Positions 16,840-55,422 of a stretch of DNA of 56,431 nucleotides are shown piece by piece. The notes under the pieces were generated by a model. It was not told the origin of the DNA. It did no database searches and worked only from the letters and a program-made list of their open reading frames with translations. The translations under genes were made by a program, and so were the position numbers. The stretch comes from a virus, in IMG/VR virus record IMGVR_UViG_3300045988_170861, positions 1-56,431 of that record; one strand, 5' to 3'. Within the stretch, counting starts at the first letter, position 1. Every line of letters starts with the position of its first letter.

Positions 16840-19800
16840 TTACCAACTTAGAGCTTCTGCTCCTTGATAGTATTCTGGAGTATCTTTTTCTTTTAATCGT
16901 TCTCTTCTATCTTTTTTACGGTCTTTTCTAGCTTTTACTACTGTACTTCTTTTCACTCCTAACTCTTTTAATTTTTTTGCATATGGTGCAAGGTTTTCTT
17001 TTCGCTCTTCTGCATCAAGGTAATCATCAATAGCATTTTGTTTTTCTTTTGATGTCTTATTCATATTGTAATATTTAAGCGATCCTAATTCGGTATCTAT
17101 AGCTTCATTTGTAGATTTAAAGCCCATACCACGAATAATTCTACTCATAGCATCATCATATTTTGTTGTAATTCGTCCTCTTCCGTCCTTGCTTTCACCA
17201 ATAGCAGCGGTATATATATTATACATACCTGGTGATATAGAACGTAACATTCCTAAATTATCACCTTTTGTAGCATTTAAATAAAATTGAGCAATAGTAC
17301 CGCCAGTAGCACCTCCGAATTTTTCCATAGCTTTAATTACAGGGTTTGCATCTTTGTTATAATCTTCTCCTAATCCTGGTATTATATCATTCATACCAAC
17401 ACGAGAACTAATATCTATACCAACGTTACTCAAACCACCATACAATAATGTTCTTATAGCTACTCTTTCTGGCAAACTTGCGTCTTTACTAGCTTCTAAT
17501 AAAAATTGTCTTACTGCTTGTTTTGGACTTACTCCAAATACAGGTTCAGAAATCAAGCCAACAAGAGCCCATAATAAATCTTCTGCTGGTAAACCAAATG
17601 CACCCGCAAAGAAAATCCAACCACCCCAGAATGTAGCCTTTTGTTGCCATGTTGCGTCTTTTTTACCATTAAACGGAATAAAATCACGCATTAATTCAAA
17701 TTGTTTTATAGGATATTTCATAAACTGAAATAACACCTGGCTTATAATGCTTCCACGTCTGAATACGTTTGGAGCATCATTTACGCCATAATCAAAGTTA
17801 GCCTTACGGTTTATATCACGAGCATATTTAACAGCATCATCATGATTTTTATTTAATACATTTCTTGCTTTTCTATATGCTGCAAGAATAGTTGCACAAC
17901 GTGCTAATCTTTCTGAAGCTTTAAATAAAATCATTGAGCGGTCGCCCCATTTACCAAAGCTTGTTTTACTATAACCAGCACCACTATCAAGCCCTAATTC
18001 ATGAAGTACGCCCGTATCTTCCATGGCTTTTCTTTCATCAGGTTTTAATTTTGCTATTCTCTTTTCTGTTTGACTTTCTTTCAAAGCAGCGATATCTTTT
18101 GCAGCCTTCATTACTTCACTAGCAGCTTTTATAGGATTTTTATCTGTTAGTAATGCTGTCGTATTTAAAAGTTGTGTTAAATTAAGCATAGCCGATGACA
18201 CATTCCATACACCGAGTTTTAAAATAGATATTTTATTTGTTATATTACCAGCAACAGATAATGCAGCTCTTTCACCATAACGCGATGTAAATAAATATCT
18301 CCACAGTCTGCGATTATTGAGCCATGTACTTATAGAATTTTCTAATGCTGATGGATTACCGTTTACATCATTGATATAGTCTTTGATATATCTAGCTGTA
18401 CCATTAAGATATTTATTATCCGTACCAATTCTTCCATATATACGTTCAAAATAAGAAATGGCCTTAGGTTTAAATTCTGTTTCTAATGCTTCATATCTAC
18501 AAGCACTATTGAAGTAATGTCTTAACACCCAATTTAAATCTTTATCTTCATATCCTTTAGCACCTGTTCTATGCTGGATATTTCCAAAGAAACGATGTTT
18601 ACTAGAGCGTCTTACCTTGTTTTTATTATCACCTTTTTTATTCAAAAGTTGTTCGACATCATCAATACTCATATCAAATTCATTTGCAATACGTTCATTT
18701 ATTTTTTTATAAGCACCATCGCCAACCATTTCAGCATAATATTCTTCATCAATTCCGACCTCATTAAAATCAAATCGTTTAGGGTGAATTATTAACTTAG
18801 CATTTTCATTGTCTTTTAAATACTGTTCTGCTTTTTTATAGGCTTCTTTTACATTTCTTCCACTATCCACAGTTGTAGTAGTTCCATCATCATTTTGAAC
18901 TACTACATAGAAATCATGGAAAAAGTGTGGTACATATCCTTCTAATTTATTTACTTTTGGAATAGCTTCACGATATTTAACAGTGTATAGCTTGTTATTA
19001 TCAAGGTTTATTTTTTCGCCTTTTGGTGTACTGTAATCATCGCCGTAAATATGAGTGCTTCCATCTTTTTCCGTTACTCCTTCTTTTTCTTCTAAAATCT
19101 GGATAGCCTCATCTTTTCTAAGTGCTTCTAATTGGGCTTTGTTACAAACATCTTGTCTTATATGACTAGGGCGAATTTCATACGTTACCAAAACATCGTC
19201 CTTATCTTTTTCATTTTGAACCTCATCTAAGATATTGACGAATTTATTTTGTTTTAATCCTTCAAGTTTACTTTTAGAAATAATTTCTGATTTTGTTTGT
19301 ATTTGCGTTCTAGCTCTATTTATTAACTCATAGCACTCATTTAAAAGACCTCTAATAGCAATATATGCTTTAGCTGTACCTTTTTTTACTCCTGTTTCTT
19401 CTACGATTTTATCTGCACGTTTTTCAAAATCAGTTATGCCTTTTCCATACTCTTCGCTTAATGCATCACCTTTAAACATCAAATCATTTAATTCCTCTAT
19501 ATCCTTATCTTTGTTTTCAAGATAATCAAACGCTTCATTTAACTTTTTATTATAATAATGACGATTTTTAAGTTGTTTACGCATAGCATTATCAGCATAA
19601 TTAAATACGGGTTTAAATGCTACATACTTTTCGGCTAATCTTTCTGGTGATGATAATATAGATTCAAAACCACCAATATTACCAAGCTCATCAACTTTTT
19701 TATCATGTGCACTTTTACTGTATATCTTTATACGCTCATCTTTTTTATTTTTAGTAAATCTATTTTTAATATTTTTAAAAGCACCTTTAAAAATACCTGT

Positions 19801-22800
19801 AGCACTATCAACACTTTTATCATTGTCAGCAGAAAATTGAGAGTTATATTCGTCATCGTCAAATAAAACGCTCATATAATCCTCACCATATTGACGAATT
19901 AAAGACTCCTCTTCTTCTTTACCTATAGAATAAAAATCTCTATTATCATTAATTTTTATCTCGCCATTTTTTCCACGTTCAAATAGTTTATTTCCCTGAT
20001 TATCAACGATAGATGAAGATAGTTTCATAAAATTTTTAAACATAGATTTCTTCTGTGTATTAGTCAATCCAGCTTTAGGATTGTTTAAGAAATCAGTAAA
20101 TCTATTCATTAAATCACGAATAAATGAAATTAATCTTTTGGCCAAAGATTTATTTTCTTTGCCTAAATTTCTTAAATATTTAACACGTTTAACTACATCA
20201 TAAAAACCATCAGCCATCATTTCTTCAATAATTTTATCTTCAGATAATTTATCACCACGCCAAACAGTTTTACGATAATCCTCAATCTGTTTTGGTGTAA
20301 CTCTTTTCTTCATATCATTTAACATATCATTAAACAAACTAGGATTATTTCTGGCTATCCAATGGAATGTTTCATGCCAAAATACTTTAGGGTGGGACCA
20401 GTTACCATTTACATTAAGATATGTTGTACCGTGAGAGTGCCAACCTCTAAATCCTTTTGGACCTGTAAACCAATATATTGGAGTTCCCATTCTATCGCCG
20501 ATTGCAGATATTTCTTTTTCATAATCGCCAATTTTAACATTATCGAAATCAGCTTTTTCTCTAATATCTACATACTCATCTAATTTTTTATACATATCTT
20601 CAGCAAAAGAATAATTACTAGATTGTTCTTTATCTGTTATTCCTCTAACCGCATTAACAAATTTCTGTCTATCTTCTGATGACGAAAATAAAAAACCTTT
20701 AGCAAATCTACTATATCCACCGCCAGATTGTTTTGCTAATGATTTCAACTGCTGAAAATTCATTTGCTCTTTTACTTTTACACGATATTTTAATTCGCCA
20801 TTTCTAGTATCAGTATGAGTATCTAAAGTAAATTTGTCATCATCAACATTCTCAATACTACCAGAGCTACTATCAGATGAATTTCCTTTTTTTGCTTCTA
20901 TTTCTTTTTTCTTTTCTATCATAGATGTGATTATATCCGCAAATTCGTCAATAGTTTTGTCAGGATTAATTTCATAAGGTGATGTATTTTTTTTAGCAGC
21001 TAATTTATCATTTTTAAAAATATTTATGAAGCCATTGTATTTACCTTTATTATCGACATCATCTTTAGCTAGTGATTTTATTATTGGTTCAATATATTTT
21101 TTTACATTTTGTTTTAAATTTTGAGCACTACTATTTGATACTTCAGGTATCATTAAAAGCCTATTGCGCATTCTTAAAACAATTTTTCTCATATTACCAG
21201 TTGTAGTTTGTAGGTTTGAATCATACCCAAAATAATAATTGTAGATATCTTTTATATTATCTATTTTTTCTTTAGTATCTTTGTTAATGTGTATAGTATC
21301 TACATATTTAACTGGTTTTTCATTAGAGAAATCAAAGTCATCAACATTTATTGATTGTTCAGGCGATGATTTTTCTTTAGTGCTTTTTGTAGTTTTTATA
21401 CCTTCTTTTGTAAGGCTACCAACTATAATATGTTCATTCAAGAAATCAGCGTCATCTTTTTTAGGTGCATTTTCTTCTTTAACTACGTTATCGTCTTCGC
21501 TTTCAACTACGTTATCTGTCATATCCTCATCATAATTGTTATCAACATTATTATCTACACCTATATTTAATTTGCTGTTGATATCAGCTTGTTTAGCTAA
21601 TAATTCATTTAGTTTATCCTCATCAGCAAATTTCTTATTCATTTCTTTTGTTAGTTCTTTTTGTCTTTCGACAGATTGTTTTATTATATCGTTATTAGTT
21701 TCAACTATTTTTTGTGGCATATTATTTACTGTAGCTTCAATACTTCTAATAGAATTTTTAGCTTCATATGACCAATTATTTACCAATGTTAAAATTACTT
21801 CTCCACTCGTTTTTGTAGTATGTCCATAAAGAGTTGTAGAAGTAGGAACAAATCTAGCTTTTAAATCAAATCCAGCTATTTCACCTATTTTTGTATTATT
21901 TTTATTTTGTTCTTTCAATATTGGTTCTGTAATTTTATCTAATGCCAATTGTGCTTTTTTACGGTCAGTAAACAGCCTATTACCAATTTTAATTGAAAAG
22001 TTTTTACCGCTTATATCTTTATGTTGTTTAACATCAAGAGTAGCTTTTTCACTTGCTTTTGTAGCATTTTCAATTTTTCCTGGAAGCTTTTCTAATTCTC
22101 TTTTTATTCTTGATTGCTTCTTATCAAAAGAATTTTTTAAGCTAGTATATTTTCCAACCTCAGCATCAATAAGAACTTTTTCTGCCATTAATGGATTACC
22201 AGAAGCTAACGATTCAGCTTCGGCAAAACTCATTGCTAATACGTCGTTATCCTCAATAATACGTTGTGTAATATCAGCACTCAACGCTTCTGATATGAAA
22301 TGCTGCTTATTCTTTATTTTTTCCCACATATTAGCATCAAAGCTATCTTTTGTTACATACGTATATATCCCGACTTCTTTATTTTCATTTCCTTGTCGTA
22401 AAATACGTCCTTCTCGTTGCTCTATATCACGAGGTCGCCATGGGCAATCTAAATGATGTAATGCAACAAGTTTTTTTTGACAGTTAGTTCCTGCCCCCAT
22501 TTTTTCTGTTGAACCAATCAGCACACGCACTTTACCATTATTTACATTATCAAATAACTCTTGTTTTTTAGCCCTTGTTTTTGCGTCATGAATAAAAGCT
22601 ATTTCATTTTCTTTTATTCCTTTTTCTATTAGTTGTCGTTTTATTTCATGATATACATTAAATTTGCCATTAGATATATCGTTTTCATTATCTGTATCTA
22701 CATCAACATTATCATTATTTTTATCGCTAACTCCTGCTGGTGTAGATAAATCGCAAAATATAAGTTGTGCTCCTTTTGTACTATTACTATCTTTGTATTC

Positions 22801-25800
22801 TTTATAAACATTATCTACAAGTGAAGATATTTTTGTACCTGCTTGTGAAACTGGTACTTCTGGGTTTATTAATCTTACATCAAGACTAGCTTTTCGCAAT
22901 TCTCCTGTAAGTTTTAACATATTATCTTCTGTTGGGTCTACTTTTCTTTGGCGTATCATTTCTGCTCTATTTTTTACATCGTTAGTAATAAAATCTTTTA
23001 ATGCAGATGAAGCTTCTACCGAAACTACAATTCTTTTTCCAGTTTTCATTTTTGGTACTTTTAAATGTAAATCTTCTGGGCGTTTTACATCAGCAAATTT
23101 CCTAAACATTTTAACCATTTCTGGCTTATTAACAAATGCTGAAGCTTTATTTACAGCTCTATAACCATTTCCATCTGGATTTCTTTCTACAGTTTGAGTA
23201 ATATCTACAAATTGATTAGCCCAATTATCAAAATACAATAAATTATTTTTACGTAAATTATCCTCATCAAGATAACGCATCATTGTATACATTTCAGCAA
23301 GTGTATTTGATATCGGTGTACCAGTTGCAAAAACAACACCACGTCCGCCATTAGTTTTAGTTATATATTTTGTTTTTAAATACATATCCATAGAACGTTG
23401 ACTTCCTGTATTTGATAAACCTGCTACACGTTGCATTTTTGTTGTAAAAGATAAATTTTTAAATAAATCTGCTTCATCAACAAATATCTGGTCTATGCCT
23501 AATTCTTCAAAAGGTATAACCATGTCTTTTTTTTCTTCAGCAATATCTCGTTTTAATTTTGTTTTAAGATTAATTATTGATTTTTCAAGGTTACGAGTTA
23601 CCATGCTATCTAACAAACTTTTATCGCCTTGAGAATTTATTTCTCTTATAGCTTGCTCTAGTGAATTTTCTTGTTCTCTATAGAATTCATTATATGCTTC
23701 TGGCGACATTGGAATTCGCTTAAACATATCATGCGAAATAATTATTCCGTCCCAATCTTCTGTAGCTATTTGTGTTAAAATTCTTTGGCGTTGTGCAATT
23801 TTTTCTGATTTTCTTGAACTGTCCTTATCTTTTTTTGTTACTTCTGGTAAGTTTTCAGATGATACTATTAACAATTGAACATTAGGATAAATTTGTCTAA
23901 ATTCATTTGCGAACTGTTGTATCATATGTCCAGGAATAACAAATAATGGTTTTTTACAAATTCCTAAACGACGCATTTCCATTGCTGCTGTTTGCATAGT
24001 CCATGTTTTACCAGCACCAACACTATGAGCAAGTAAAGTATTTGAATTTTGCATTATACGCCATACAGCATCTTTTTGATGTTTTCTTAACGGTGGTGCT
24101 ATTAATGAATATCCTGGTAATATTAAATGTGAACCATCATATTCACGCAACTTCCAATTATTAAAGTTTGTATTGTAATAATCAAGTAATCTTTTTGTTC
24201 GCTTTTCGTCTGACCATATCCAATCATTAAATGCCTTTTTAATATTATCAATCATATTATTTGCAGCTGTTGTAGCATCATCATCAACGACTGATTTATT
24301 CTCACTAATAGTCTTTTTTATGACTGGTCGCTTTTGATTTAATGCTGCTTCTAGCAATTTATCAAAAGACCAACGGTTACTAATACCCCATGTTTCAGTA
24401 AACGAAACATTATTTTTAACCCAAGTATCAGCTTTAACTGCCCACTCACCATTAGCTGGCAAATAAATTACATCAATATAATCACTATTTACACCAACAG
24501 TTTCTGCTGCAAATTGTTTTATATCACTTGCTGGTATCCATGAAGCACCAAGATTAACTGTTATTTCTTCTGGAACAAGGTCAACTGGTTGAACTTTTTT
24601 GAGTGCCTCAATATTTTCTTTATAGCTACTATCTGTTTTCGCTACTTCTTCAGCTTGAGCTAATTTTTCACGTACATTGCCAGACAAATATTCATCTTGT
24701 GTTTCATATAATCCTGTCATCGGATTTTTATAAATAACGCCTTTGAGATTTTCAACTATTTCTTTTGGCTCTTTTCCAACTAAATTAGCCATATAATCAA
24801 TATCTACTTTTCCTTGTTCGCGTAAACTTATAGCTAGTGCGTCAGATGGGCTGTCAGCTTTTGTTGGTTTTTTTACTAATCCAACTGTTCGCATATTAAA
24901 AATATCTGATTTTCCAACAGTAACTTTTTTAGTCTTTTTATCTTCTGAATATCGTTCTATTGCCGATACCATTCCGTATTCTGGGTCAGTTGCAAGATAA
25001 CGAGAATTGTTTTTATTATTCAAATATCCGTTGTTTTCAACAAATGTATCATACAAAGTATTAAGTTCTGTTCTTATCTTTGAAATAGCTGTATCACTTA
25101 TTTTGTTATCAACTTGAGCTGACAATAATTGTTTTAATTTGTTTTTAACATTAACAAAATCTTTAACAAGTTTTTGCTTTGCTTTTGGAACTTCTTCTAA
25201 TTTACCATTTATATTTTGATATACTTTACCACTTTTACCAATAGTATAAGAATTATCTCTAAGCTTATTCGGTGCAAGATATTCCATTGTAGCCTGTTTA
25301 CTATCTTTTACAGGATTTAACAATGGCTCGTAAACATCTTCAGCTATTTTTTTTGTTATTTTTGATAACTTTTTAGGTAAATCAATATCCTTACCACTTA
25401 CATTTAAAGCATCGTTTCCATAACGACCAGAAATTGATGTAATTTTTCCAGCTACCATTTCAGGATTTTTTATATAATATTGGTTCATTTGAAACATACG
25501 TTCATCAACATCAATAAGGTCTGTTTCAATCCAATCTTTAGCATTAATATCTGCTTTTAATGGGTCAATGCGTTTCTTTAATATTATTATGTCAGAAATA
25601 ACATTTGTACCTGTATTATTTTTAAATGCTGTATCAGGTAACCTAATAGCACCTATTAAATCAGCTTTATCTTTTAAATATATACGTAAACGCTTTGAAT
25701 CATGACTATTATCCATAGTTCCTTTAGTAGTTATAAAAACAATCAATCCACCTGGTCTAACTTTATCCAAAGCTTTAGCAAAAAAGTAATTATGAATATC

Positions 25801-28800
25801 AAATTTATATTTATTGAATTTAGCATCGTGTACTCTAAATTGACCAAATGGAACATTACCAATAGCTAAATCAAAGAAGTTATCAGGAGAACTAAGTTTT
25901 TCAAATCCAGTGATATTAATATTAGCTTTTTGATAAAGTTGTGTAGCAATCTGACCACTTATTTTATCCAATTCTACGCCTGTTAAATATGAATTTCCCA
26001 TTATTTTTTCAGGCATAAGACCAAAGAAATTACCTACTCCCATTGATGGTTCAAGTATTTTACCGCCTTTAAATCCTAATCTATCAACAATTTTCCAAAT
26101 AGATTTTACTACATTAGGTGCTGTGTAATATGCAGAAAGCATAGACTCTTTAGCTGCTCTATATTCATCATCGGTTAATAATTCTTTTAATTCATTATTT
26201 GTTTTTTCATCAGAAAATACCGATGTCATTCCGCCCCAGCCACTATATTTTGCTAATGTTTTTTGTTCTGCAGACGTTGCTTTTCTACTTTCTATTTCTA
26301 ATTGTTTTAAAAGTTTTATTGCTTTTATATTATTTTTATATCGTTTTTCTTTACCACCTTCACCGACATTATCTTTATCTGACATTCTATAGTTAATAAG
26401 TGCAGGCTCATTACTTATTTCTTTTACCGTTTCTGTTGTTAAAGGTTCTATCTTTCGTTCATCATTTCCCAAGCCAGCATTTCCGCTTCCATTCTGCGTC
26501 TGGTCAACTCCAGATAATCGTCCGTTGGTGTCTGGTCGTTCATCAACATTTGTGTCAAGTCCTCGTGTTGATTGTCCCTCTCCTCGATTATTTTCTGTAC
26601 TTGTTGACGAAGATTTCCTTTCTTCTTCATTGCTTCCAGTTCCTTCGGATTGTTTACTTCCATTTGTAATATTTCCTCGTCTATTCTGTTCTTCATCGAG
26701 AACGCCATTATCTTTCACCTCATCAGTTTTATTTATTAAATTATTGTCTTTAGCATAATTATATATATTATCTATAACACGAACAATTGAATCAATAGTT
26801 CTACTTTCAACTGCTGAATATCTACCAACGCGAGGATTATTTTCCCATATATCACGGCGATTATCTTGTTCTTCTTTTGTTGTAGCTTTATTTATCCACT
26901 GTTCAACAGCTTCTGCTTCTTTTTCTTTTGCTATTTTATTTAAAGCTGAATACTTGTTACCAGCATATTTTAATGAGTTATCTATTTCATCTAATGTTAC
27001 ATCAAATTTTCTGTTAGAACCAAATAACAGTCTTTGACTTAATTCAGGAGAATCTACACTATCAAAATCTTTTTCTGTATAATTACTTTTTTTAGCATCT
27101 TTTGAAGTTAATGTTATTACATTTCCTCTTAAAAAACCATTATACATACCGATTTTATCATTAAATTTATAGATAATAGGATTTTTTTTGTTGCTTTTTT
27201 GTTCTTTAGTTTTTTCTTCTTTTTCTACATTTTCTTCTTGCGGTTTATTTTCTTCTTTAGTTTTTTCTTCTGTTACGTTAGTTTCCTTTACATCAACCTC
27301 TTTTTCTTTTGTAACTTTATCATTGCTTTGTTTTTCTTTATCTTTTGCTACTGCTTCTTCAATTGCTTGTTTTCTTGCTATTGCTGATTCAGCTAATATG
27401 TCATCAATTCCTAATCCTTTACCTTCTGGAGTAAATACTTTTTCCATCAAGTCTTTATATTTTTTTCTTATCTTAATTAACTTATTTTTAAGTTCTTCTT
27501 TTATATCATGGTCGTTTATAGCTTCTAAATCTTTAAATAATTGTTTTGTATATTCATCACCTTTTTTTACTTCTTCCACTGTAGGGTCTTTGAAGTTTTC
27601 TGGTATTTTTTCTATCTGTTCAGTAGAAGCTTCTTTTTCGCTTGATTTTTTTTGCTCTTTAACTTCTTCTTTATTATTTTTATTTAGTTTGTCTTTTAAG
27701 AAGTTGAAATAATCATGTTCTCCTTTAGTTATTTTTTCTTTTTTATCATCTTTAACTAAATAATAATTACTTCCATCTTTTTGAACATTATAACTGTCAT
27801 CGCTTATAGATTTTTCTATTCTTTCTTGACGAGAAATTTCACTATTAGGAAGTATTTTCTTTAATGTATTTGTAGCTTGTGATTTTTTTAATGATGTATC
27901 TAATGTATTGATATATTGATTAAAATATGGCTCTAAATCAATATTTTGATTTTGTTCAACGTTATTAGAAGGTTCTTCATTTACTATTTGTTCTCGTTGT
28001 TTTGGTGTCTTATATGAACCATAAACTTGCGGTGGTAATGTGAAATTTTTTGCAAACTCAACACCGCTTTTAATTAATTTATTTCTTCTAGCTTCTATTC
28101 TTGTTTGATTAGCGAGCTGAATTGGATTAAGAATTTTATTTTGTAGAATGTTGTTAGCTGTTGATGTTGATTCAACTTTTTGTACATTGTCATTAACAAC
28201 ATTATTTTGCTGTTGTTGTACTTGTTGATTATTAGCTATTTCATTAGCATAATTTTTCATCAAATATTGTTTTGCTTTTTGCTCATCTAAGAATTGATTA
28301 TCTTCATTATTATTTTTAAATAATGATTGTAATTTAGCTATTTCTTCTGGATTTCTACTTGTTTTAACTCGTTGTCTTGCAAACTCACGTAACCTATCAA
28401 GGTTAGGAGTTTCCATTTGAATTTTATTATTATTTGTAGATTTATTTTCGTTTGATGATGGTTTAACTGTATTAGTTGTTTTAATTGATTTAGTTAATGG
28501 TTCATTATTTTGTTTTTGTCTACTATTAACATAATCATAAATATTATCTTCTATACCTGGATAACGTTGTATTAATGCTCTTAAATTATCATCAGTAGCT
28601 TTAAATAGTTTATTTCCTCTTCCATCTATTATTGTTTTATCCTTAAAAAATTCTGTCGTTTCACCATCAGCATTATTAAGCATATCATTAGCAAAATCTA
28701 AAATAGAATTATCAAATTGTACGCTTGCTTCTGCTATATTTGTTTTACCTTTTGTTCCTAATCCACCTTTATATCCTTCTAAATGTAAATGATATCCACT

Positions 28801-30723
28801 GCCTACGTCATGAAATAATACATCTTCGAAAGCTCCTGTGTCCTCAAAACGTTTCCTTACAGCTTGTGCTTGTTCGTCTGTAATTCCGTTTGGTAAAACA
28901 ATATCTACTGCATCACCTTTTGTATGATATGAACCTTCAACGCCTCCAACTTCTCTATTATGTTCAGGTGTTCTATATGCTGATGAAATTGCTGAACCTT
29001 CTGCCATACCCATATCATCAAGAATACCACCAATATATGGTAATGCACTTTTAAATGCAGGAGTAAGTCCTTCTATTTGATTTTCTATTCCTGGTTGAAC
29101 AGATAAATTATACGTATGCATATTATATCTTGATAGTCCATCATCTTGTATTTCACCAGCAATACTTTCAATATTCGCTCCATACTCATTCGGGTCAGAA
29201 GAAAAATATCCATTATCATATAATACACGTGCAAAATCTTGTCCATTTTTTACATTGGATAAATCATAATGGCTTAATGTTTGTTTTGCATACTCATGAG
29301 CAAAATCTTCTATTGAATCAAAACTTTGTAACTCATTTGCTGTAGTATCCGTTCTTTTTAAGCCAGCAAAATTATTAGTTCTGTTAGCATTTCCAGCAGT
29401 AAATCTTCCACTTTCTAATGCCCATTGTGAATAAATATATTTTGTTAAATCTGGTCGTCCTATATCATCAGCAGCGATTTTTGCAGCTTCCCATGCTTTT
29501 TCATTTTCTACGCCTTTTGGTACACCTTGGTCTGTTACATATCTTGTATAAGAAGCAGCTCCGCTCATTGGTGCTCCTGTAAGTGCTCCTATAAGTAGAG
29601 AGTCAAGCTGGTCTTGACTAGCGTTCCAAGGCAACAATCCCCAATCTTTATCTGTTTGTGCATTTGAAATACCTTGCTGTACATACTCTTCTAAACCTTG
29701 TTGAGCCGATGTAGCTAATGTAGAAGGAACAGAACGATATGTCCCTTTAATTAATCTTTTAGGAATGCTTTCTCCTTCTACCGCAAGAGGCTTAAATATC
29801 TTTCCGCCAAGTAATCCATATTCAAGACCATTCGATATTGCCAATGATGGCAAATTCAATCCAGCAGTTTTCCAACCGCGTAAAAACGGATTGTCTAATC
29901 CTTCTTCTTTTGCTTGTCTTACTACATTACCACCTTCAGATAAACTTTCAGGTACAGATGTTATAGAACCTCTTATCATTGTTTCTAAAGCATCGTCGCT
30001 TAATCCACGTAAAAAAGGTAATTTTTTTAATGTCTGTGCTGCTGATGTTACTTTTGTAGCTGGTGCTAAGAATGAAGATGGATATAATGCAGCCATTGAG
30101 CCGACCATATTACCAACATCATAAGTCAAGCCAGATGGATTAGTTAAGTAATCTAGCGATAAAATATTATCTGCTCCACTATACTCTCTATCTCTTTTAT
30201 TTAATTTAGAAATAGCATTTAATTCATTTCCTGTTTTTTCTGCTCCGAATATATCAGCAATCCCACCAGCTACAGAACTTGCTCCACTAACAGCACCTTT
30301 ACCAAAATTATAATTATATTCAGCAGCAGTTGGTGCATATGTTTGTTGCATTGCGTGTTCAACTTCATTTGCACCAGCCAATCCACTAAATAATAAACTG
30401 ATAGGCGACTGATTAATTCCTAAATGTTTCAATTCTCCAAACGGCATTGCTCGTTCTAAACCTGCTACAGTATCTTTAAGTTTTTGTGGAATATATTCAT
30501 TATAAGTATCAGATATATTGTTTGCTACCCAATCATAATTATTAGAAATTCCATTTGCTACATATTCAGCATTATTAGAAATACCGCTGGCTATATCACC
30601 AGCGGTATCAAATATTTTATCTAATGTAGACTCATTTTCTTCTTGTCGTCTTTTTTCTTCTTCTGCGTTATATGTTCCAACAGGGCCTGTTGCTTTTATA
30701 AAGTTCTGTAAAAATTTAGACAT
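16840..30723 (-). CDS. giant polyvalent virion/ejection protein (4627 aa): glucosaminidase + M15 peptidase + N6A-MTase + SNF2 helicase + HExxH zincin + hydrophobic C-terminus
   Basis: Motifs YSQWALESGRF...NNFAGLK; SAYRTPEHNRE...H.H; ILEPSMGVGNFFG and NVPFG; AHSVGAGKT, FVDEAD, TGTPISN, QREGRILRQG; FWHETFHW. Confidence 0.85.
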   Translation of the reverse strand: MSKFLQNFIKATGPVGTYNAEEEKRRQEENESTLDKIFDTAGDIASGISNNAEYVANGISNNYDWVANNISDTYNEYIPQKLKDTVAGLERAMPFGELKHLGINQSPISLLFSGLAGANEVEHAMQQTYAPTAAEYNYNFGKGAVSGASSVAGGIADIFGAEKTGNELNAISKLNKRDREYSGADNILSLDYLTNPSGLTYDVGNMVGSMAALYPSSFLAPATKVTSAAQTLKKLPFLRGLSDDALETMIRGSITSVPESLSEGGNVVRQAKEEGLDNPFLRGWKTAGLNLPSLAISNGLEYGLLGGKIFKPLAVEGESIPKRLIKGTYRSVPSTLATSAQQGLEEYVQQGISNAQTDKDWGLLPWNASQDQLDSLLIGALTGAPMSGAASYTRYVTDQGVPKGVENEKAWEAAKIAADDIGRPDLTKYIYSQWALESGRFTAGNANRTNNFAGLKRTDTTANELQSFDSIEDFAHEYAKQTLSHYDLSNVKNGQDFARVLYDNGYFSSDPNEYGANIESIAGEIQDDGLSRYNMHTYNLSVQPGIENQIEGLTPAFKSALPYIGGILDDMGMAEGSAISSAYRTPEHNREVGGVEGSYHTKGDAVDIVLPNGITDEQAQAVRKRFEDTGAFEDVLFHDVGSGYHLHLEGYKGGLGTKGKTNIAEASVQFDNSILDFANDMLNNADGETTEFFKDKTIIDGRGNKLFKATDDNLRALIQRYPGIEDNIYDYVNSRQKQNNEPLTKSIKTTNTVKPSSNENKSTNNNKIQMETPNLDRLREFARQRVKTSRNPEEIAKLQSLFKNNNEDNQFLDEQKAKQYLMKNYANEIANNQQVQQQQNNVVNDNVQKVESTSTANNILQNKILNPIQLANQTRIEARRNKLIKSGVEFAKNFTLPPQVYGSYKTPKQREQIVNEEPSNNVEQNQNIDLEPYFNQYINTLDTSLKKSQATNTLKKILPNSEISRQERIEKSISDDSYNVQKDGSNYYLVKDDKKEKITKGEHDYFNFLKDKLNKNNKEEVKEQKKSSEKEASTEQIEKIPENFKDPTVEEVKKGDEYTKQLFKDLEAINDHDIKEELKNKLIKIRKKYKDLMEKVFTPEGKGLGIDDILAESAIARKQAIEEAVAKDKEKQSNDKVTKEKEVDVKETNVTEEKTKEENKPQEENVEKEEKTKEQKSNKKNPIIYKFNDKIGMYNGFLRGNVITLTSKDAKKSNYTEKDFDSVDSPELSQRLLFGSNRKFDVTLDEIDNSLKYAGNKYSALNKIAKEKEAEAVEQWINKATTKEEQDNRRDIWENNPRVGRYSAVESRTIDSIVRVIDNIYNYAKDNNLINKTDEVKDNGVLDEEQNRRGNITNGSKQSEGTGSNEEERKSSSTSTENNRGEGQSTRGLDTNVDERPDTNGRLSGVDQTQNGSGNAGLGNDERKIEPLTTETVKEISNEPALINYRMSDKDNVGEGGKEKRYKNNIKAIKLLKQLEIESRKATSAEQKTLAKYSGWGGMTSVFSDEKTNNELKELLTDDEYRAAKESMLSAYYTAPNVVKSIWKIVDRLGFKGGKILEPSMGVGNFFGLMPEKIMGNSYLTGVELDKISGQIATQLYQKANINITGFEKLSSPDNFFDLAIGNVPFGQFRVHDAKFNKYKFDIHNYFFAKALDKVRPGGLIVFITTKGTMDNSHDSKRLRIYLKDKADLIGAIRLPDTAFKNNTGTNVISDIIILKKRIDPLKADINAKDWIETDLIDVDERMFQMNQYYIKNPEMVAGKITSISGRYGNDALNVSGKDIDLPKKLSKITKKIAEDVYEPLLNPVKDSKQATMEYLAPNKLRDNSYTIGKSGKVYQNINGKLEEVPKAKQKLVKDFVNVKNKLKQLLSAQVDNKISDTAISKIRTELNTLYDTFVENNGYLNNKNNSRYLATDPEYGMVSAIERYSEDKKTKKVTVGKSDIFNMRTVGLVKKPTKADSPSDALAISLREQGKVDIDYMANLVGKEPKEIVENLKGVIYKNPMTGLYETQDEYLSGNVREKLAQAEEVAKTDSSYKENIEALKKVQPVDLVPEEITVNLGASWIPASDIKQFAAETVGVNSDYIDVIYLPANGEWAVKADTWVKNNVSFTETWGISNRWSFDKLLEAALNQKRPVIKKTISENKSVVDDDATTAANNMIDNIKKAFNDWIWSDEKRTKRLLDYYNTNFNNWKLREYDGSHLILPGYSLIAPPLRKHQKDAVWRIMQNSNTLLAHSVGAGKTWTMQTAAMEMRRLGICKKPLFVIPGHMIQQFANEFRQIYPNVQLLIVSSENLPEVTKKDKDSSRKSEKIAQRQRILTQIATEDWDGIIISHDMFKRIPMSPEAYNEFYREQENSLEQAIREINSQGDKSLLDSMVTRNLEKSIINLKTKLKRDIAEEKKDMVIPFEELGIDQIFVDEADLFKNLSFTTKMQRVAGLSNTGSQRSMDMYLKTKYITKTNGGRGVVFATGTPISNTLAEMYTMMRYLDEDNLRKNNLLYFDNWANQFVDITQTVERNPDGNGYRAVNKASAFVNKPEMVKMFRKFADVKRPEDLHLKVPKMKTGKRIVVSVEASSALKDFITNDVKNRAEMIRQRKVDPTEDNMLKLTGELRKASLDVRLINPEVPVSQAGTKISSLVDNVYKEYKDSNSTKGAQLIFCDLSTPAGVSDKNNDNVDVDTDNENDISNGKFNVYHEIKRQLIEKGIKENEIAFIHDAKTRAKKQELFDNVNNGKVRVLIGSTEKMGAGTNCQKKLVALHHLDCPWRPRDIEQREGRILRQGNENKEVGIYTYVTKDSFDANMWEKIKNKQHFISEALSADITQRIIEDNDVLAMSFAEAESLASGNPLMAEKVLIDAEVGKYTSLKNSFDKKQSRIKRELEKLPGKIENATKASEKATLDVKQHKDISGKNFSIKIGNRLFTDRKKAQLALDKITEPILKEQNKNNTKIGEIAGFDLKARFVPTSTTLYGHTTKTSGEVILTLVNNWSYEAKNSIRSIEATVNNMPQKIVETNNDIIKQSVERQKELTKEMNKKFADEDKLNELLAKQADINSKLNIGVDNNVDNNYDEDMTDNVVESEDDNVVKEENAPKKDDADFLNEHIIVGSLTKEGIKTTKSTKEKSSPEQSINVDDFDFSNEKPVKYVDTIHINKDTKEKIDNIKDIYNYYFGYDSNLQTTTGNMRKIVLRMRNRLLMIPEVSNSSAQNLKQNVKKYIEPIIKSLAKDDVDNKGKYNGFINIFKNDKLAAKKNTSPYEINPDKTIDEFADIITSMIEKKKEIEAKKGNSSDSSSGSIENVDDDKFTLDTHTDTRNGELKYRVKVKEQMNFQQLKSLAKQSGGGYSRFAKGFLFSSSEDRQKFVNAVRGITDKEQSSNYSFAEDMYKKLDEYVDIREKADFDNVKIGDYEKEISAIGDRMGTPIYWFTGPKGFRGWHSHGTTYLNVNGNWSHPKVFWHETFHWIARNNPSLFNDMLNDMKKRVTPKQIEDYRKTVWRGDKLSEDKIIEEMMADGFYDVVKRVKYLRNLGKENKSLAKRLISFIRDLMNRFTDFLNNPKAGLTNTQKKSMFKNFMKLSSSIVDNQGNKLFERGKNGEIKINDNRDFYSIGKEEEESLIRQYGEDYMSVLFDDDEYNSQFSADNDKSVDSATGIFKGAFKNIKNRFTKNKKDERIKIYSKSAHDKKVDELGNIGGFESILSSPERLAEKYVAFKPVFNYADNAMRKQLKNRHYYNKKLNEAFDYLENKDKDIEELNDLMFKGDALSEEYGKGITDFEKRADKIVEETGVKKGTAKAYIAIRGLLNECYELINRARTQIQTKSEIISKSKLEGLKQNKFVNILDEVQNEKDKDDVLVTYEIRPSHIRQDVCNKAQLEALRKDEAIQILEEKEGVTEKDGSTHIYGDDYSTPKGEKINLDNNKLYTVKYREAIPKVNKLEGYVPHFFHDFYVVVQNDDGTTTTVDSGRNVKEAYKKAEQYLKDNENAKLIIHPKRFDFNEVGIDEEYYAEMVGDGAYKKINERIANEFDMSIDDVEQLLNKKGDNKNKVRRSSKHRFFGNIQHRTGAKGYEDKDLNWVLRHYFNSACRYEALETEFKPKAISYFERIYGRIGTDNKYLNGTARYIKDYINDVNGNPSALENSISTWLNNRRLWRYLFTSRYGERAALSVAGNITNKISILKLGVWNVSSAMLNLTQLLNTTALLTDKNPIKAASEVMKAAKDIAALKESQTEKRIAKLKPDERKAMEDTGVLHELGLDSGAGYSKTSFGKWGDRSMILFKASERLARCATILAAYRKARNVLNKNHDDAVKYARDINRKANFDYGVNDAPNVFRRGSIISQVLFQFMKYPIKQFELMRDFIPFNGKKDATWQQKATFWGGWIFFAGAFGLPAEDLLWALVGLISEPVFGVSPKQAVRQFLLEASKDASLPERVAIRTLLYGGLSNVGIDISSRVGMNDIIPGLGEDYNKDANPVIKAMEKFGGATGGTIAQFYLNATKGDNLGMLRSISPGMYNIYTAAIGESKDGRGRITTKYDDAMSRIIRGMGFKSTNEAIDTELGSLKYYNMNKTSKEKQNAIDDYLDAEERKENLAPYAKKLKELGVKRSTVVKARKDRKKDRRERLKEKDTPEYYQGAEALSW

Positions 30724-52709: not shown

Positions 52710-52933
52710 GTTACCATTTTGTTACCATTTTACTTACAACCACTCAAAAAAATTAATATCGTTTAAAAAAATAATATTATAAAATACTCGTTTTTTAACA
52801 TATTTTACCATACAAAAAATATAAAAAGCCATTCATGAGTTTATCGGTAAATCCTGCTTTTTCTAAAACATCTTTATTTATAAGCATTTAAAGCATATAT
52901 AAAATAAATTTGTTACCATTTTGTTACCGATTT
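52710..52933. repeat. attP-like region: tandem GTTACCATTTT x2 at 52710..52731 and again at 52912..52933 (direct), flanking ~180-bp AT-rich segment abutting integrase stop
   Basis: Direct repeats read from sequence. Confidence 0.6.
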
Positions 52934-54143: not shown

Positions 54144-54324
54144 AAATACATCACCCTTTCTATGTCGGGGCGAATATGATATAATCTTAATTGTTTTTAC
54201 TGGTTATAAACATATCCTGCCTGACATGAATAGCACCGCAAGTACGGTGCTATTTTTATTTTGATAATAATATATTGTATTTCTCCCTCATGTACGTTAT
54301 AATGTACATAAGGGAGATGATTAT

Positions 54325-54573
54325 ATGACTATAACAAATGTTACTAATTTTAGACAAAATATATTTGAAATGCTTGAAAACACAATAAAGTACAATGACT
54401 TACTAAATATTACTACTAAATTTGGTAATGCTGTTGTACTCAGTGAGGAAGATTATCATGGTTTAATAGAAACACTTGCTATTTTATCTAATCCTGAAAT
54501 GAAAGATAAAATCATAGAAGGGAAAAATACTCCACTTGAAGATTGTGTATCTGAAAGTGAGGTTGAATGGTAA
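54325..54573 (+). CDS. Phd/YefM-family antitoxin
   Basis: NFRQNIFEML...AVVLSEEDYHGLIETLAILSNPE matches YefM fold. Confidence 0.8.
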   Translation: MTITNVTNFRQNIFEMLENTIKYNDLLNITTKFGNAVVLSEEDYHGLIETLAILSNPEMKDKIIEGKNTPLEDCVSESEVEW

Positions 54574-54840
54574 TTATATAAAATTGTTTATACTAAGACT
54601 GCTATAAAAGATATTCCAAAATTAAAATCGGCTCATCTTGATAAAAAGGCTAAATTATTAATTGATTTAATTGCACAAAATCCTTATAAAACTCCACCCA
54701 GTTATGAAAAATTAATTGGCATATTAGACGGAGTATACTCTAGAAGAATAAACATTCAACACAGGTTAGTTTATCAAGTTTATGAAGAAGAAAAAATTAT
54801 AAAAGTAATTAGTTTATGGTCGCATTATGAACGAGTTTAA
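54574..54840 (+). CDS. YoeB/Txe-family toxin homolog with no ATG/GTG/TTG start, in frame directly after the Phd TAA stop
   Basis: Translation ...KIVYTKTAIKDIPKL...GVYSRRINIQHRLVYQVYEEEKIIKVISLWSHY matches YoeB/Txe; no Met codon anywhere in frame. Confidence 0.6.
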   Translation, partial: LYKIVYTKTAIKDIPKLKSAHLDKKAKLLIDLIAQNPYKTPPSYEKLIGILDGVYSRRINIQHRLVYQVYEEEKIIKVISLWSHYERV

Positions 54841-54983
54841 AACTTATGGTATAATATAGATATAACATTCCATGGCACAAATGGGAATGTTAGAACATGC
54901 ACATATTCAATCCTGTTACAATTAAATATGCGTTACGTTTTTTTGTTTCATTCAATACCACACAGGAACCGTATCAAAGAAAA

Positions 54984-55011: not shown

Positions 55012-55422
55012 TTACCATATACTATCACCATTTAATTTATTTTCTACCTCATTTAATCTATCATCTAAATCACCTAAATCAGTAGTGCCAAAAGAATATC
55101 CTTCAATATCTTGTATATCGTCTTGAGCTTCGCTGACATTATCTTCTGCTTCAGATACTCTCATTTCAGCATCAGATAATCTGCTTTCTAAATCTTGAAC
55201 ATAAGCTTCGTTATCAGCTTTTGTGCTTTCCAAATCCTCAATACGATACTCTAATGAATTAACATCGCTCTTTACCTTTTTTACATTTTTAGTCAAACCA
55301 GCTGTAGTATCTTGTAAGACTTTTATTTCTTGTTGCTGGTTATAAACAACACCAATTAAAATAACAATTAAAATAATAAATATTATATTTAATTTTTTAG
55401 TATTCATAAAATCCCTTCTCAA
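55012..55422 (-). CDS. membrane-anchored coiled-coil protein
   Basis: N-terminal TM IIFIILIVILIGVV then acidic heptad repeats. Confidence 0.5.
   Translation of the reverse strand: MRRDFMNTKKLNIIFIILIVILIGVVYNQQQEIKVLQDTTAGLTKNVKKVKSDVNSLEYRIEDLESTKADNEAYVQDLESRLSDAEMRVSEAEDNVSEAQDDIQDIEGYSFGTTDLGDLDDRLNEVENKLNGDSIW

What the first reader, a model, noticed from the sequence alone, without database searches (positions are those of the whole stretch)
54325..54840. YoeB/Txe-type toxin lacking any start codon, in frame immediately after the Phd antitoxin stop
The 86 codons following the Phd TAA stop (same frame) encode a clear YoeB/Txe homolog (...SRRINIQHRLVYQVY...), but the frame contains no ATG, GTG or TTG at all. 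Expression would need stop-codon readthrough (giving a Phd-YoeB fusion), reinitiation at a non-canonical codon (ATT at 54583), or the toxin is silenced by start-codon loss while the antitoxin is retained, possibly as an anti-TA/anti-addiction device.
Basis: seen in the sequence. Interest (0 to 1): 0.6.

Follow-up and report, generated by a model that had tools for sequence, protein, structure and literature searches.

The report
Toxin gene silenced by start-codon mutation
A temperate Megamonas phage carries an ordinary YefM/Phd–YoeB toxin–antitoxin cassette in which a single G→A change has turned the toxin's TTG start codon into TTA, so the toxin is almost certainly no longer made while the antitoxin stays intact.

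Summary
A Phd/YefM antitoxin gene (54325-54573) is followed directly, in the same frame, by 88 sense codons (54574-54837, not 86) of a YoeB/Txe toxin. That frame has no ATG, GTG or TTG.

The cause is simple. All 28 related loci I fetched read TTG at 54574-54576, where the window reads TTA. They are Megamonas prophages, one free-phage contig and a chromosomal Megamonas copy. Eleven fetched loci (seven distinct contigs) match the window over the whole 516-nt operon except for G→A at 54576. A relative only 66% identical keeps the same TAA|TTG junction.

So this is a very recent, private start-codon loss, or less likely a base-call error. It is not readthrough and not a recoding device. Everything else is intact: catalytic residues, the Shine-Dalgarno sequence, and the paired TGTAC boxes 12 bp apart around a TATAAT.

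The 584-bp cassette is dispensable. Eight of ten contigs with an identical integrase lack it.

The "antitoxin-only anti-TA" idea stays possible, because Megamonas chromosomes encode the identical antitoxin and a 98%-identical toxin. No relative shares the TTA allele, so that idea has no support yet. This is an ordinary, decaying member of a known family and of low interest.

The parts
54267..54274 (+). Left copy of the 8-nt direct repeat ATAATATA, marking the left edge of the 584-bp TA cassette
   Evidence: Relatives without the TA and with an identical integrase read straight across ...TATTTT|TATGGTATAATATATAT.... Homology to the window breaks at 54275 and resumes at 54844.
54282..54317 (+). 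18+18-nt palindrome, the putative YefM operator. It holds TGTACG (54291-54296) and TGTACA (54303-54308) 12 bp apart, a perfect TATAAT (54298-54303) between them, and in its right arm the Phd Shine-Dalgarno sequence GGGAG (54312-54316).
   Evidence: as RNA, -20.4 kcal/mol, z -4.9. The paired TGTACA boxes with 12-bp centre-to-centre spacing match the published yefM-yoeB operator (PMC1802561). Relatives have three variants, each perfectly complementary, with changes on both arms. The window is the only one with a C/A mismatch, at 54289/54310.
54325..54573 (+). Phd/YefM antitoxin gene, intact (ATG start, 82 aa, TAA stop)
   Evidence: PF02604 at 36 bits. The exact protein is indexed in 129 blocks of the public collection, in both prophage and chromosomal Megamonas loci.
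54559..54562 (+). Shine-Dalgarno sequence (GAGG, within GTGAGGT) for the toxin, 11 nt upstream of codon 1, inside the Phd coding region
   Evidence: Read from the sequence. Identical in relatives.
54574..54576 (+). Former start codon of the toxin: TTA here, TTG in every relative. The mutation is G→A at 54576.
   Evidence: In one search, 25 of 25 aligned relatives have G at 54576, which is one of only 2 private substitutions in 2614 compared positions.
54574..54840 (+). YoeB/Txe toxin reading frame (88 codons plus TAA), otherwise intact, with no usable start codon
   Evidence: PF06769 at 39.5 bits. Identical to P0001 apart from residue 1. Catalytic-residue equivalents E45, R64, H84 and Y85 are present.
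54851..54858 (+). Right copy of the direct repeat ATAATATA, at the right edge of the cassette

Best explanation
This is a standard two-gene YefM/Phd-YoeB/Txe type II toxin-antitoxin cassette. It sits as an accessory insert between the integrase and the repressor of a temperate Megamonas phage. In relatives the operon has a TATAAT flanked by paired TGTAC boxes (the autoregulatory operator). There the toxin is translated from a TTG that abuts the antitoxin's TAA stop, helped by a GAGG Shine-Dalgarno sequence 11 nt upstream; this is translational coupling. In this window one G→A transition at 54576 changed that TTG to TTA. TTA is not an initiation codon and there is no other start in the frame. 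The toxin is therefore effectively untranslated and has become a very young pseudogene, while the antitoxin is still made. What is shown: the mutation, its uniqueness to this window, the intactness of everything else, and the dispensability of the cassette. What is inferred: loss of toxin protein, continued antitoxin expression, and that the loss is neutral or mildly favoured rather than a designed function.
For: TTG is present at this codon in all 28 related loci and TTA only in the window. Eleven fetched loci (seven distinct contigs) are identical to the window across all 516 nt of the operon except at 54576. A viral contig only 66% identical at protein level (L029) has the same ...GAGGTTGAATGGTAA|TTG junction, and all the other full-length distant viral relatives have a canonical start within 2 codons of this position (one tblastn match began only at query residue 9, so its start was not located). 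The toxin protein equals P0001 except M1→L. Family membership and catalytic residues are intact. Only 2 window-private substitutions occur in 2614 compared positions, which argues for a clean assembly and a recent event. A 13.9-kb uninterrupted ORF elsewhere in the window argues against a generally error-prone sequence. Eight of ten contigs with a 100%-identical integrase lack the cassette entirely, so losing the toxin costs the phage little. Codons that are not near-cognate to AUG initiate at only about 0.01-1% of AUG in E. coli (bioRxiv 10.1101/063800). Degraded TA pairs and orphan antitoxins are common in bacterial populations (PMC7192599).
Against: No reads are available, so a consensus base error or a minority variant at 54576 cannot be excluded. 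No expression data exist. Termination-reinitiation directly after TAA with an intact Shine-Dalgarno sequence might allow trace initiation at TTA. One of only two private substitutions landing on the toxin start codon is somewhat unlikely for neutral drift (roughly 0.2% for the codon itself, a few percent for any toxin-killing site). That hints at selection rather than pure decay.
Confidence: 0.72

Rival explanations
1. This is a sequencing, assembly or consensus artefact, or a minority variant. The real phage has TTG and a normal TA module.
For: The allele is unique among 28 relatives, and the rest of the operon is identical to several of them. A single-base substitution is the smallest possible discrepancy.
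Against: The window aligns to its closest relatives without gaps and has only 2 private substitutions in 2.6 kb. It also carries an intact 4627-codon ORF, so the assembly is of high quality. The change is an ordinary GC→AT transition outside any homopolymer.
Confidence: 0.12
2. This is an adaptive antitoxin-only allele. The phage has shed its toxin but keeps Phd to neutralise the nearly identical chromosomal YoeB of its Megamonas host. This would act as anti-addiction or anti-defence, as known for orphan antitoxins in other phages.
For: Chromosomal Megamonas loci (L020, L022, L023) encode exactly the same Phd protein. Their toxin differs by only 2 residues, so cross-neutralisation is very plausible. 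The start-codon hit is one of only 2 private substitutions. Phage orphan antitoxins used as counter-defence are documented (PMC11825919).
Against: None of the 28 relatives share the allele, so there is no evidence that it persists or spreads. Phages with the intact pair would supply the same antitoxin. Most close relatives simply lack the cassette. YoeB-based phage defence in Megamonas has not been shown.
Confidence: 0.1
3. The toxin is still made at a low level by non-canonical initiation. Candidates are TTA through termination-reinitiation, ATT at 54583, or a +1 shift from the ATG at 54567. The result would be an attenuated TA module.
For: The Shine-Dalgarno sequence and the stop-start abutment are intact. 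Many non-canonical codons give measurable initiation in E. coli. Some relatives (L031, L046, P0007) do start the toxin at the ATG of ATGGTAA/ATGGTAG.
Against: TTA differs from AUG at two positions and is not a table-11 start. ATT lies 20 nt from the Shine-Dalgarno sequence. The ATG at 54567 is in a different frame from the toxin and gives only MVII-stop. No frameshift signal is evident, and relatives with TTG carry the same mini-ORF.
Confidence: 0.05
4. Programmed readthrough of the Phd TAA produces a Phd-YoeB fusion protein.
For: The two reading frames are in phase and separated by one stop codon.
Against: The same in-phase TAA junction occurs in all relatives that have a normal TTG start, so it is not specific to this allele. 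From general knowledge, TAA followed by T is an efficient terminator context. No readthrough-stimulating element was seen. The window's long ORFs read normally under table 11.
Confidence: 0.01

Closest known systems
Escherichia coli YefM-YoeB (PDB 2A6Q and others)
   Same: Same Pfam families, with antitoxin first and toxin second. E46 and R65 align to E45 and R64, and there is a C-terminal His-Tyr pair. The operator has two TGTAC(A) boxes 12 bp centre-to-centre overlapping the promoter (PMC1802561).
   Different: Only 36% identity over 56 residues. One box here is TGTACG, and the boxes are embedded in a longer 18+18 palindrome that also contains the antitoxin's Shine-Dalgarno sequence. The toxin start codon is destroyed in this window.
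Staphylococcus aureus YefM-YoeB (PDB 7V5Y, 7V5Z, 7V6W)
   Same: The closest solved structure by sequence (E 1.6e-13, residues 4-86 aligned), including the SRRIN-QHR-VY and WSHY motifs.
   Different: Chromosomal in a different phylum, and it has a functional start codon.
Txe/YoeB family toxins of Megamonas and other gut Firmicutes (P0001, P0004; NCBI name 'Txe/YoeB family addiction module toxin')
   Same: P0001 is identical to the window's product apart from residue 1. It has the same operon, the same operator and the same phage position between int and repressor.
   Different: They have TTG at codon 1 and the window has TTA.
Orphan antitoxins, anti-addiction modules and phage antitoxin-like counter-defences
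   Same: An antitoxin gene is left without an expressible toxin, on a phage whose host genus carries the cognate toxin (PMC7192599, PMC11825919).
   Different: Here the toxin gene is still present and otherwise perfect. The state is private to one sequence, and no counter-defence activity has been shown.

Membership tests
YefM/Phd-YoeB/Txe type II toxin-antitoxin module | Toxin matches the YoeB_toxin profile above the curated threshold | tested here: met
   PF06769 at 39.5 bits against a cutoff of 27, E 5.7e-10.
YefM/Phd-YoeB/Txe type II toxin-antitoxin module | YoeB catalytic residues present (E. coli Glu46, Arg65, His83, Tyr84; the residue list is from my knowledge of Kamada & Hanaoka 2005) | tested here: met
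   E45 and R64 align to E46 and R65. The C-terminal WSHY aligns to the WSHY of S. aureus YoeB.
YefM/Phd-YoeB/Txe type II toxin-antitoxin module | Phd/YefM antitoxin gene immediately upstream in the same operon | tested here: met
   PF02604 at 36 bits against a cutoff of 29.8. Its stop codon abuts toxin codon 1.
YefM/Phd-YoeB/Txe type II toxin-antitoxin module | Paired TGTACA operator boxes, 12 bp centre-to-centre, within 80 bp of the antitoxin start (common in the family but not universal) | tested here: met
   TGTACG at 54291-54296 and TGTACA at 54303-54308, 17-34 nt upstream of the ATG. The criterion, which allows one mismatch, is from PMC1802561.
YefM/Phd-YoeB/Txe type II toxin-antitoxin module | Toxin gene is translatable (has an initiation codon with a ribosome-binding site) | tested here: not met
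   There is no ATG, GTG or TTG in the frame, and codon 1 is TTA. This feature is met in all 28 relatives, which have TTG.
YefM/Phd-YoeB/Txe type II toxin-antitoxin module | Toxin arrests growth and the antitoxin neutralises it | not testable with these tools
   Needs cloning with a restored TTG or ATG and co-expression of Phd.
Orphan antitoxin used as an anti-addiction or anti-defence device | A cognate toxin is present in the host that the antitoxin could neutralise | tested here: inconclusive
   Megamonas chromosomal loci encode the identical Phd and a toxin differing by 2 residues. The actual host strain of this phage is unknown.
Orphan antitoxin used as an anti-addiction or anti-defence device | The antitoxin-only state is maintained in a lineage, that is, recurrent or conserved | tested here: not met
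   None of the 28 relatives carry TTA. Relatives either have the full pair or lack the cassette.
Programmed stop-codon readthrough or recoding | The stop codon with no downstream start is conserved among relatives | tested here: not met
   Relatives have a conventional TTG, GTG or ATG start at or next to this position.

The most novel reading that the evidence does not exclude
The TTA allele is a selected, antitoxin-only version of the cassette. The phage keeps Phd, possibly derepressed by the accompanying mismatch in the operator palindrome, to disarm the near-identical chromosomal YefM-YoeB of Megamonas during infection or superinfection. It would have shed a toxin that could harm its own lytic growth.
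Probability: 0.1. Interest if true: 0.45.

Novelty: already known. Interest (0 to 1): 0.14.

Why it matters
It matters little beyond annotation. The locus should be annotated as a YoeB/Txe pseudogene (start-codon loss) next to an intact Phd/YefM gene, not as a recoding event. It is a tidy natural example of the first step of TA decay: the toxin is silenced first and the antitoxin is kept. It also shows that this 584-bp cassette moves among Megamonas phages and the chromosome. Only if the antitoxin-only state proved beneficial would it add a type II example to the growing list of phage antitoxin counter-defences.

Tried and rejected
- **Phage collection:** a BLAST of the locus against the GenBank phage collection gave no match.
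- **IMG/VR pattern scans:** exact-pattern scans for both the TTA and the TTG junction gave no match. The species-representative genome set and the JGI metagenomes each gave one hit, both TTG.
- **Same allele elsewhere:** I looked for it through contigs encoding the identical Phd and the identical integrase. None lacked the toxin call while keeping Phd.
- **ATG at 54567:** I considered it as the true start, since some relatives use ATGGTAA/ATGGTAG. I rejected it because here it is in a different frame from the toxin and gives MVII-stop.
- **ATT at 54583:** rejected, because it lies 20 nt from the Shine-Dalgarno sequence.
- **Alternative genetic code or stop recoding:** rejected, because the stop is TAA and the window's long ORFs read normally under table 11.
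- **Promoter scan:** the consensus scan did not call a + strand promoter, because the -35 (TTGTAT) matches only 3 of 6. The promoter assignment therefore rests on the perfect TATAAT between the operator boxes and on analogy with yefM-yoeB.
- **Not run:** structure prediction and the large profile searches, because sequence evidence was already decisive.

Full report
**Observation**

- An 82-codon ORF (ATG 54325 to TAA 54571-54573) matches PhdYeFM_antitox: 36 bits against a cutoff of 29.8.
- The next 88 codons in the same frame (54574-54837, TAA at 54838-54840) match YoeB_toxin: 39.5 bits against a cutoff of 27, E 5.7e-10. They also match ParE_toxin.
- A codon-by-codon check found no ATG, GTG or TTG in the frame. 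There are only ATT and ATA codons, the first being ATT at 54583.
- The ATG embedded in ...GAATGGTAA... (54567) is in a different frame from the toxin and encodes only MVII-stop.

**What relatives show**

A protein search returned thousands of Txe/YoeB-family proteins. The top hit, P0001 (88 aa, seen on 47 contigs including a 2.68-Mb one), is identical to the window's translation except that residue 1 is M instead of L.

I fetched the DNA of contigs encoding four proteins:
- P0001 and P0004;
- the window's exact Phd protein;
- the window's exact integrase.

I also ran one exact-pattern scan each of the species-representative genomes and the JGI metagenomes.
- Every one of the 28 loci that carry the module reads ...GTGAGGTTGAATGGTAA|TTGTATAAAATT..., where the window reads ...TAA|TTATATAAAATT... 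(L069 and L075 have the 88-aa gene called).
- Eleven fetched loci are identical to the window over all 516 nt of the operon apart from G→A at 54576. They represent seven distinct contigs, because several contigs were fetched twice.
- At 54576, 25 of 25 aligned relatives have G. This is one of only two window-private substitutions across 2614 positions covered by at least five relatives. The other is 55041 C→T, which gives D128N in a neighbouring gene.
- A viral contig whose toxin is only 66% identical (L029) keeps the same GAGGTTGAATGGTAA|TTG junction.
- All the other full-length distant viral relatives have a canonical ATG, GTG or TTG within two codons of this position. One match (L056) began only at query residue 9, so its start was not located. 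The starts come in three junction styles: abutting TAA|TTG, GTG overlapping TGGTGA, and ATG overlapping ATGGTAG.

The "missing" start is therefore a single-base loss of a conserved TTG initiation codon. It is not an unusual expression mechanism shared by the family.

**Anatomy of the module**

- *Operator and promoter.* Upstream of Phd lies an 18+18-nt palindrome (54282-54317). It contains TGTACG (54291-54296) and TGTACA (54303-54308) exactly 12 bp apart, with a perfect TATAAT (54298-54303) in the 6-bp spacer. This matches the paired TGTACA operator with 12-bp centre-to-centre spacing described for E. coli yefM-yoeB and many homologues (PMC1802561).
- *Ribosome-binding sites.* The right arm of the palindrome carries the Phd Shine-Dalgarno sequence (GGGAG, 54312-54316, 8 nt before the ATG). 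The toxin's Shine-Dalgarno sequence (GAGG, 54559-54562) sits 11 nt before codon 1, inside Phd. With the stop and start codons abutting, this indicates translational coupling in the intact relatives (inference).
- *Toxin residues.* The toxin retains the equivalents of E. coli YoeB Glu46 and Arg65 (E45, R64). It also retains the C-terminal His-Tyr pair (H84, Y85), which aligns to S. aureus YoeB, the closest solved structure at E 1.6e-13.
- Apart from codon 1, nothing in the toxin gene is damaged.

**Context**

- *The window is a phage.* It is a 56-kb temperate phage genome encoding a large terminase, a portal protein, a major head protein, an integrase and a CI-like repressor.
- *It is in free or circular form.* Homology to integrated prophages stops at 52837-52840, just past the integrase. 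The window and contigs L072 and L075 continue from there into phage genes instead of the host PRK gene.
- *Host.* The host genus is Megamonas, from the title of the MAG contig L015.
- *The cassette is an accessory insert.* Eight of ten contigs with a 100%-identical integrase lack it. The empty site reads straight across a short AT-rich sequence. In the window, 584 bp are bracketed by the direct repeat ATAATATA (54267-54274 and 54851-54858).
- *It is shared widely.* The same cassette, identical in the coding part, occurs in phages with different integrases and insertion sites (NFACT, PRK, hsdR). At about 94.5% nucleotide identity it also occurs at a chromosomal Megamonas locus between an acetyltransferase gene and a XerC-like integrase gene.
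- *The chromosomal copy is near-identical in protein.* In some genomes it encodes the very same Phd protein and a toxin differing at two residues.

**Mechanism**

The best-supported reading has four steps.
1. Relatives carry a working, autoregulated, translationally coupled YefM-YoeB pair.
2. In this phage a GC→AT transition destroyed the only initiation codon.
3. The toxin is then not translated. TTA is not a recognised start, and non-near-cognate codons give about 0.01-1% of AUG in E. coli.
4. The antitoxin is still produced.

The mutation itself is shown. The loss of toxin protein and the continued antitoxin expression are inferred. Because the cassette is dispensable in this phage family, losing the toxin is expected to be neutral or favourable. 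Degraded TA pairs and orphan antitoxins are common (PMC7192599).

**Rivals**

- *Base-call error or minority variant.* This cannot be excluded without reads. The assembly looks clean, however: alignments to the nearest relatives have no gaps, there are two private substitutions in 2.6 kb, and a 4627-codon ORF is intact.
- *Residual non-canonical initiation.* This is unlikely. ATT lies 20 nt from the Shine-Dalgarno sequence, and the ATG at 54567 is out of frame with the toxin.
- *Readthrough fusion.* This is very unlikely, because the in-phase TAA junction is the normal state in relatives that have a proper start.
- *Adaptive antitoxin-only device.* It is made plausible by the identical chromosomal Phd and near-identical chromosomal toxin, and by phage precedents (PMC11825919). 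One of only two private substitutions hitting the start codon is mildly suggestive. But no relative shares the allele, and phages with the intact pair would supply the same antitoxin.

**Verdict**

The phenomenon is an ordinary, very recent pseudogenisation of the toxin in a well-known TA family. Novelty: already known. Interest: low.

Noticed in passing
window 54282-54317 (pairs 54289/54310 and 54287/54312): The palindrome around the TA promoter occurs in relatives as three variants, each perfectly self-complementary: TCTCCCTCATGTAC/GTACATGAGGGAGA, TCTCCCTTATGTAC/GTACATAAGGGAGA and TCTCCTTTATGTAC/GTACATAAAGGAGA. These are changes on both arms, although the Phd protein is the same. One locus (L005) has a G opposite T. 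The window alone combines the left arm of variant 1 with the right arm of variant 2, giving a C/A mismatch. The right arm contains the Phd Shine-Dalgarno sequence, so an RNA hairpin that sequesters it (-20.4 kcal/mol, z -4.9) is an alternative or an addition to a DNA operator.
   Followed up: partly
window 54267-54274 and 54851-54858; loci L066-L068, L070-L074: The TA cassette is a 584-bp presence/absence polymorphism flanked by the 8-nt direct repeat ATAATATA. Eight of ten contigs with an identical integrase have the empty site. The same cassette also sits at a chromosomal Megamonas locus next to a XerC-like integrase gene. How it moves is unknown.
   Followed up: partly
window 16840-30723 (- strand): A single giant ORF of 4627 codons. 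Pfam finds glucosaminidase and M15 peptidase domains near the N-terminus and ResIII/Helicase_C domains in the middle. It resembles the polyvalent proteins of phages and conjugative elements. Most of its length has no Pfam match.
   Followed up: partly
window 52837-52932 and the window ends: The window is a circularly permuted, free-form temperate phage genome with an attP-type junction downstream of the integrase. Integrated relatives abut the 3' end of a PRK-family kinase gene at the equivalent point.
   Followed up: partly
window 54567-54581: A five-codon mini-ORF, ATG GTA ATT ATA TAA, overlaps the Phd stop and the toxin start, out of frame with the toxin. Relatives with TTG have the same mini-ORF (ATG GTA ATT GTA TAA). 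In other relatives (P0007, L031, L046) this ATG is the toxin's real start, because 2 extra bases or a different frame bring it into phase.
   Followed up: partly
window 54228-54255 (+ strand): A strong terminator-like hairpin (11-bp stem followed by a T-run) lies between the integrase start and the TA cassette. It is conserved in relatives with and without the cassette.
   Followed up: no
window 55041: This is the only other window-private substitution in the 2.6 kb compared: C→T on the + strand. It gives D128N near the C-terminus of the 136-aa coiled-coil ORF at 55012-55422 (- strand), which has weak PHROG matches to an Rz-like spanin.
   Followed up: no
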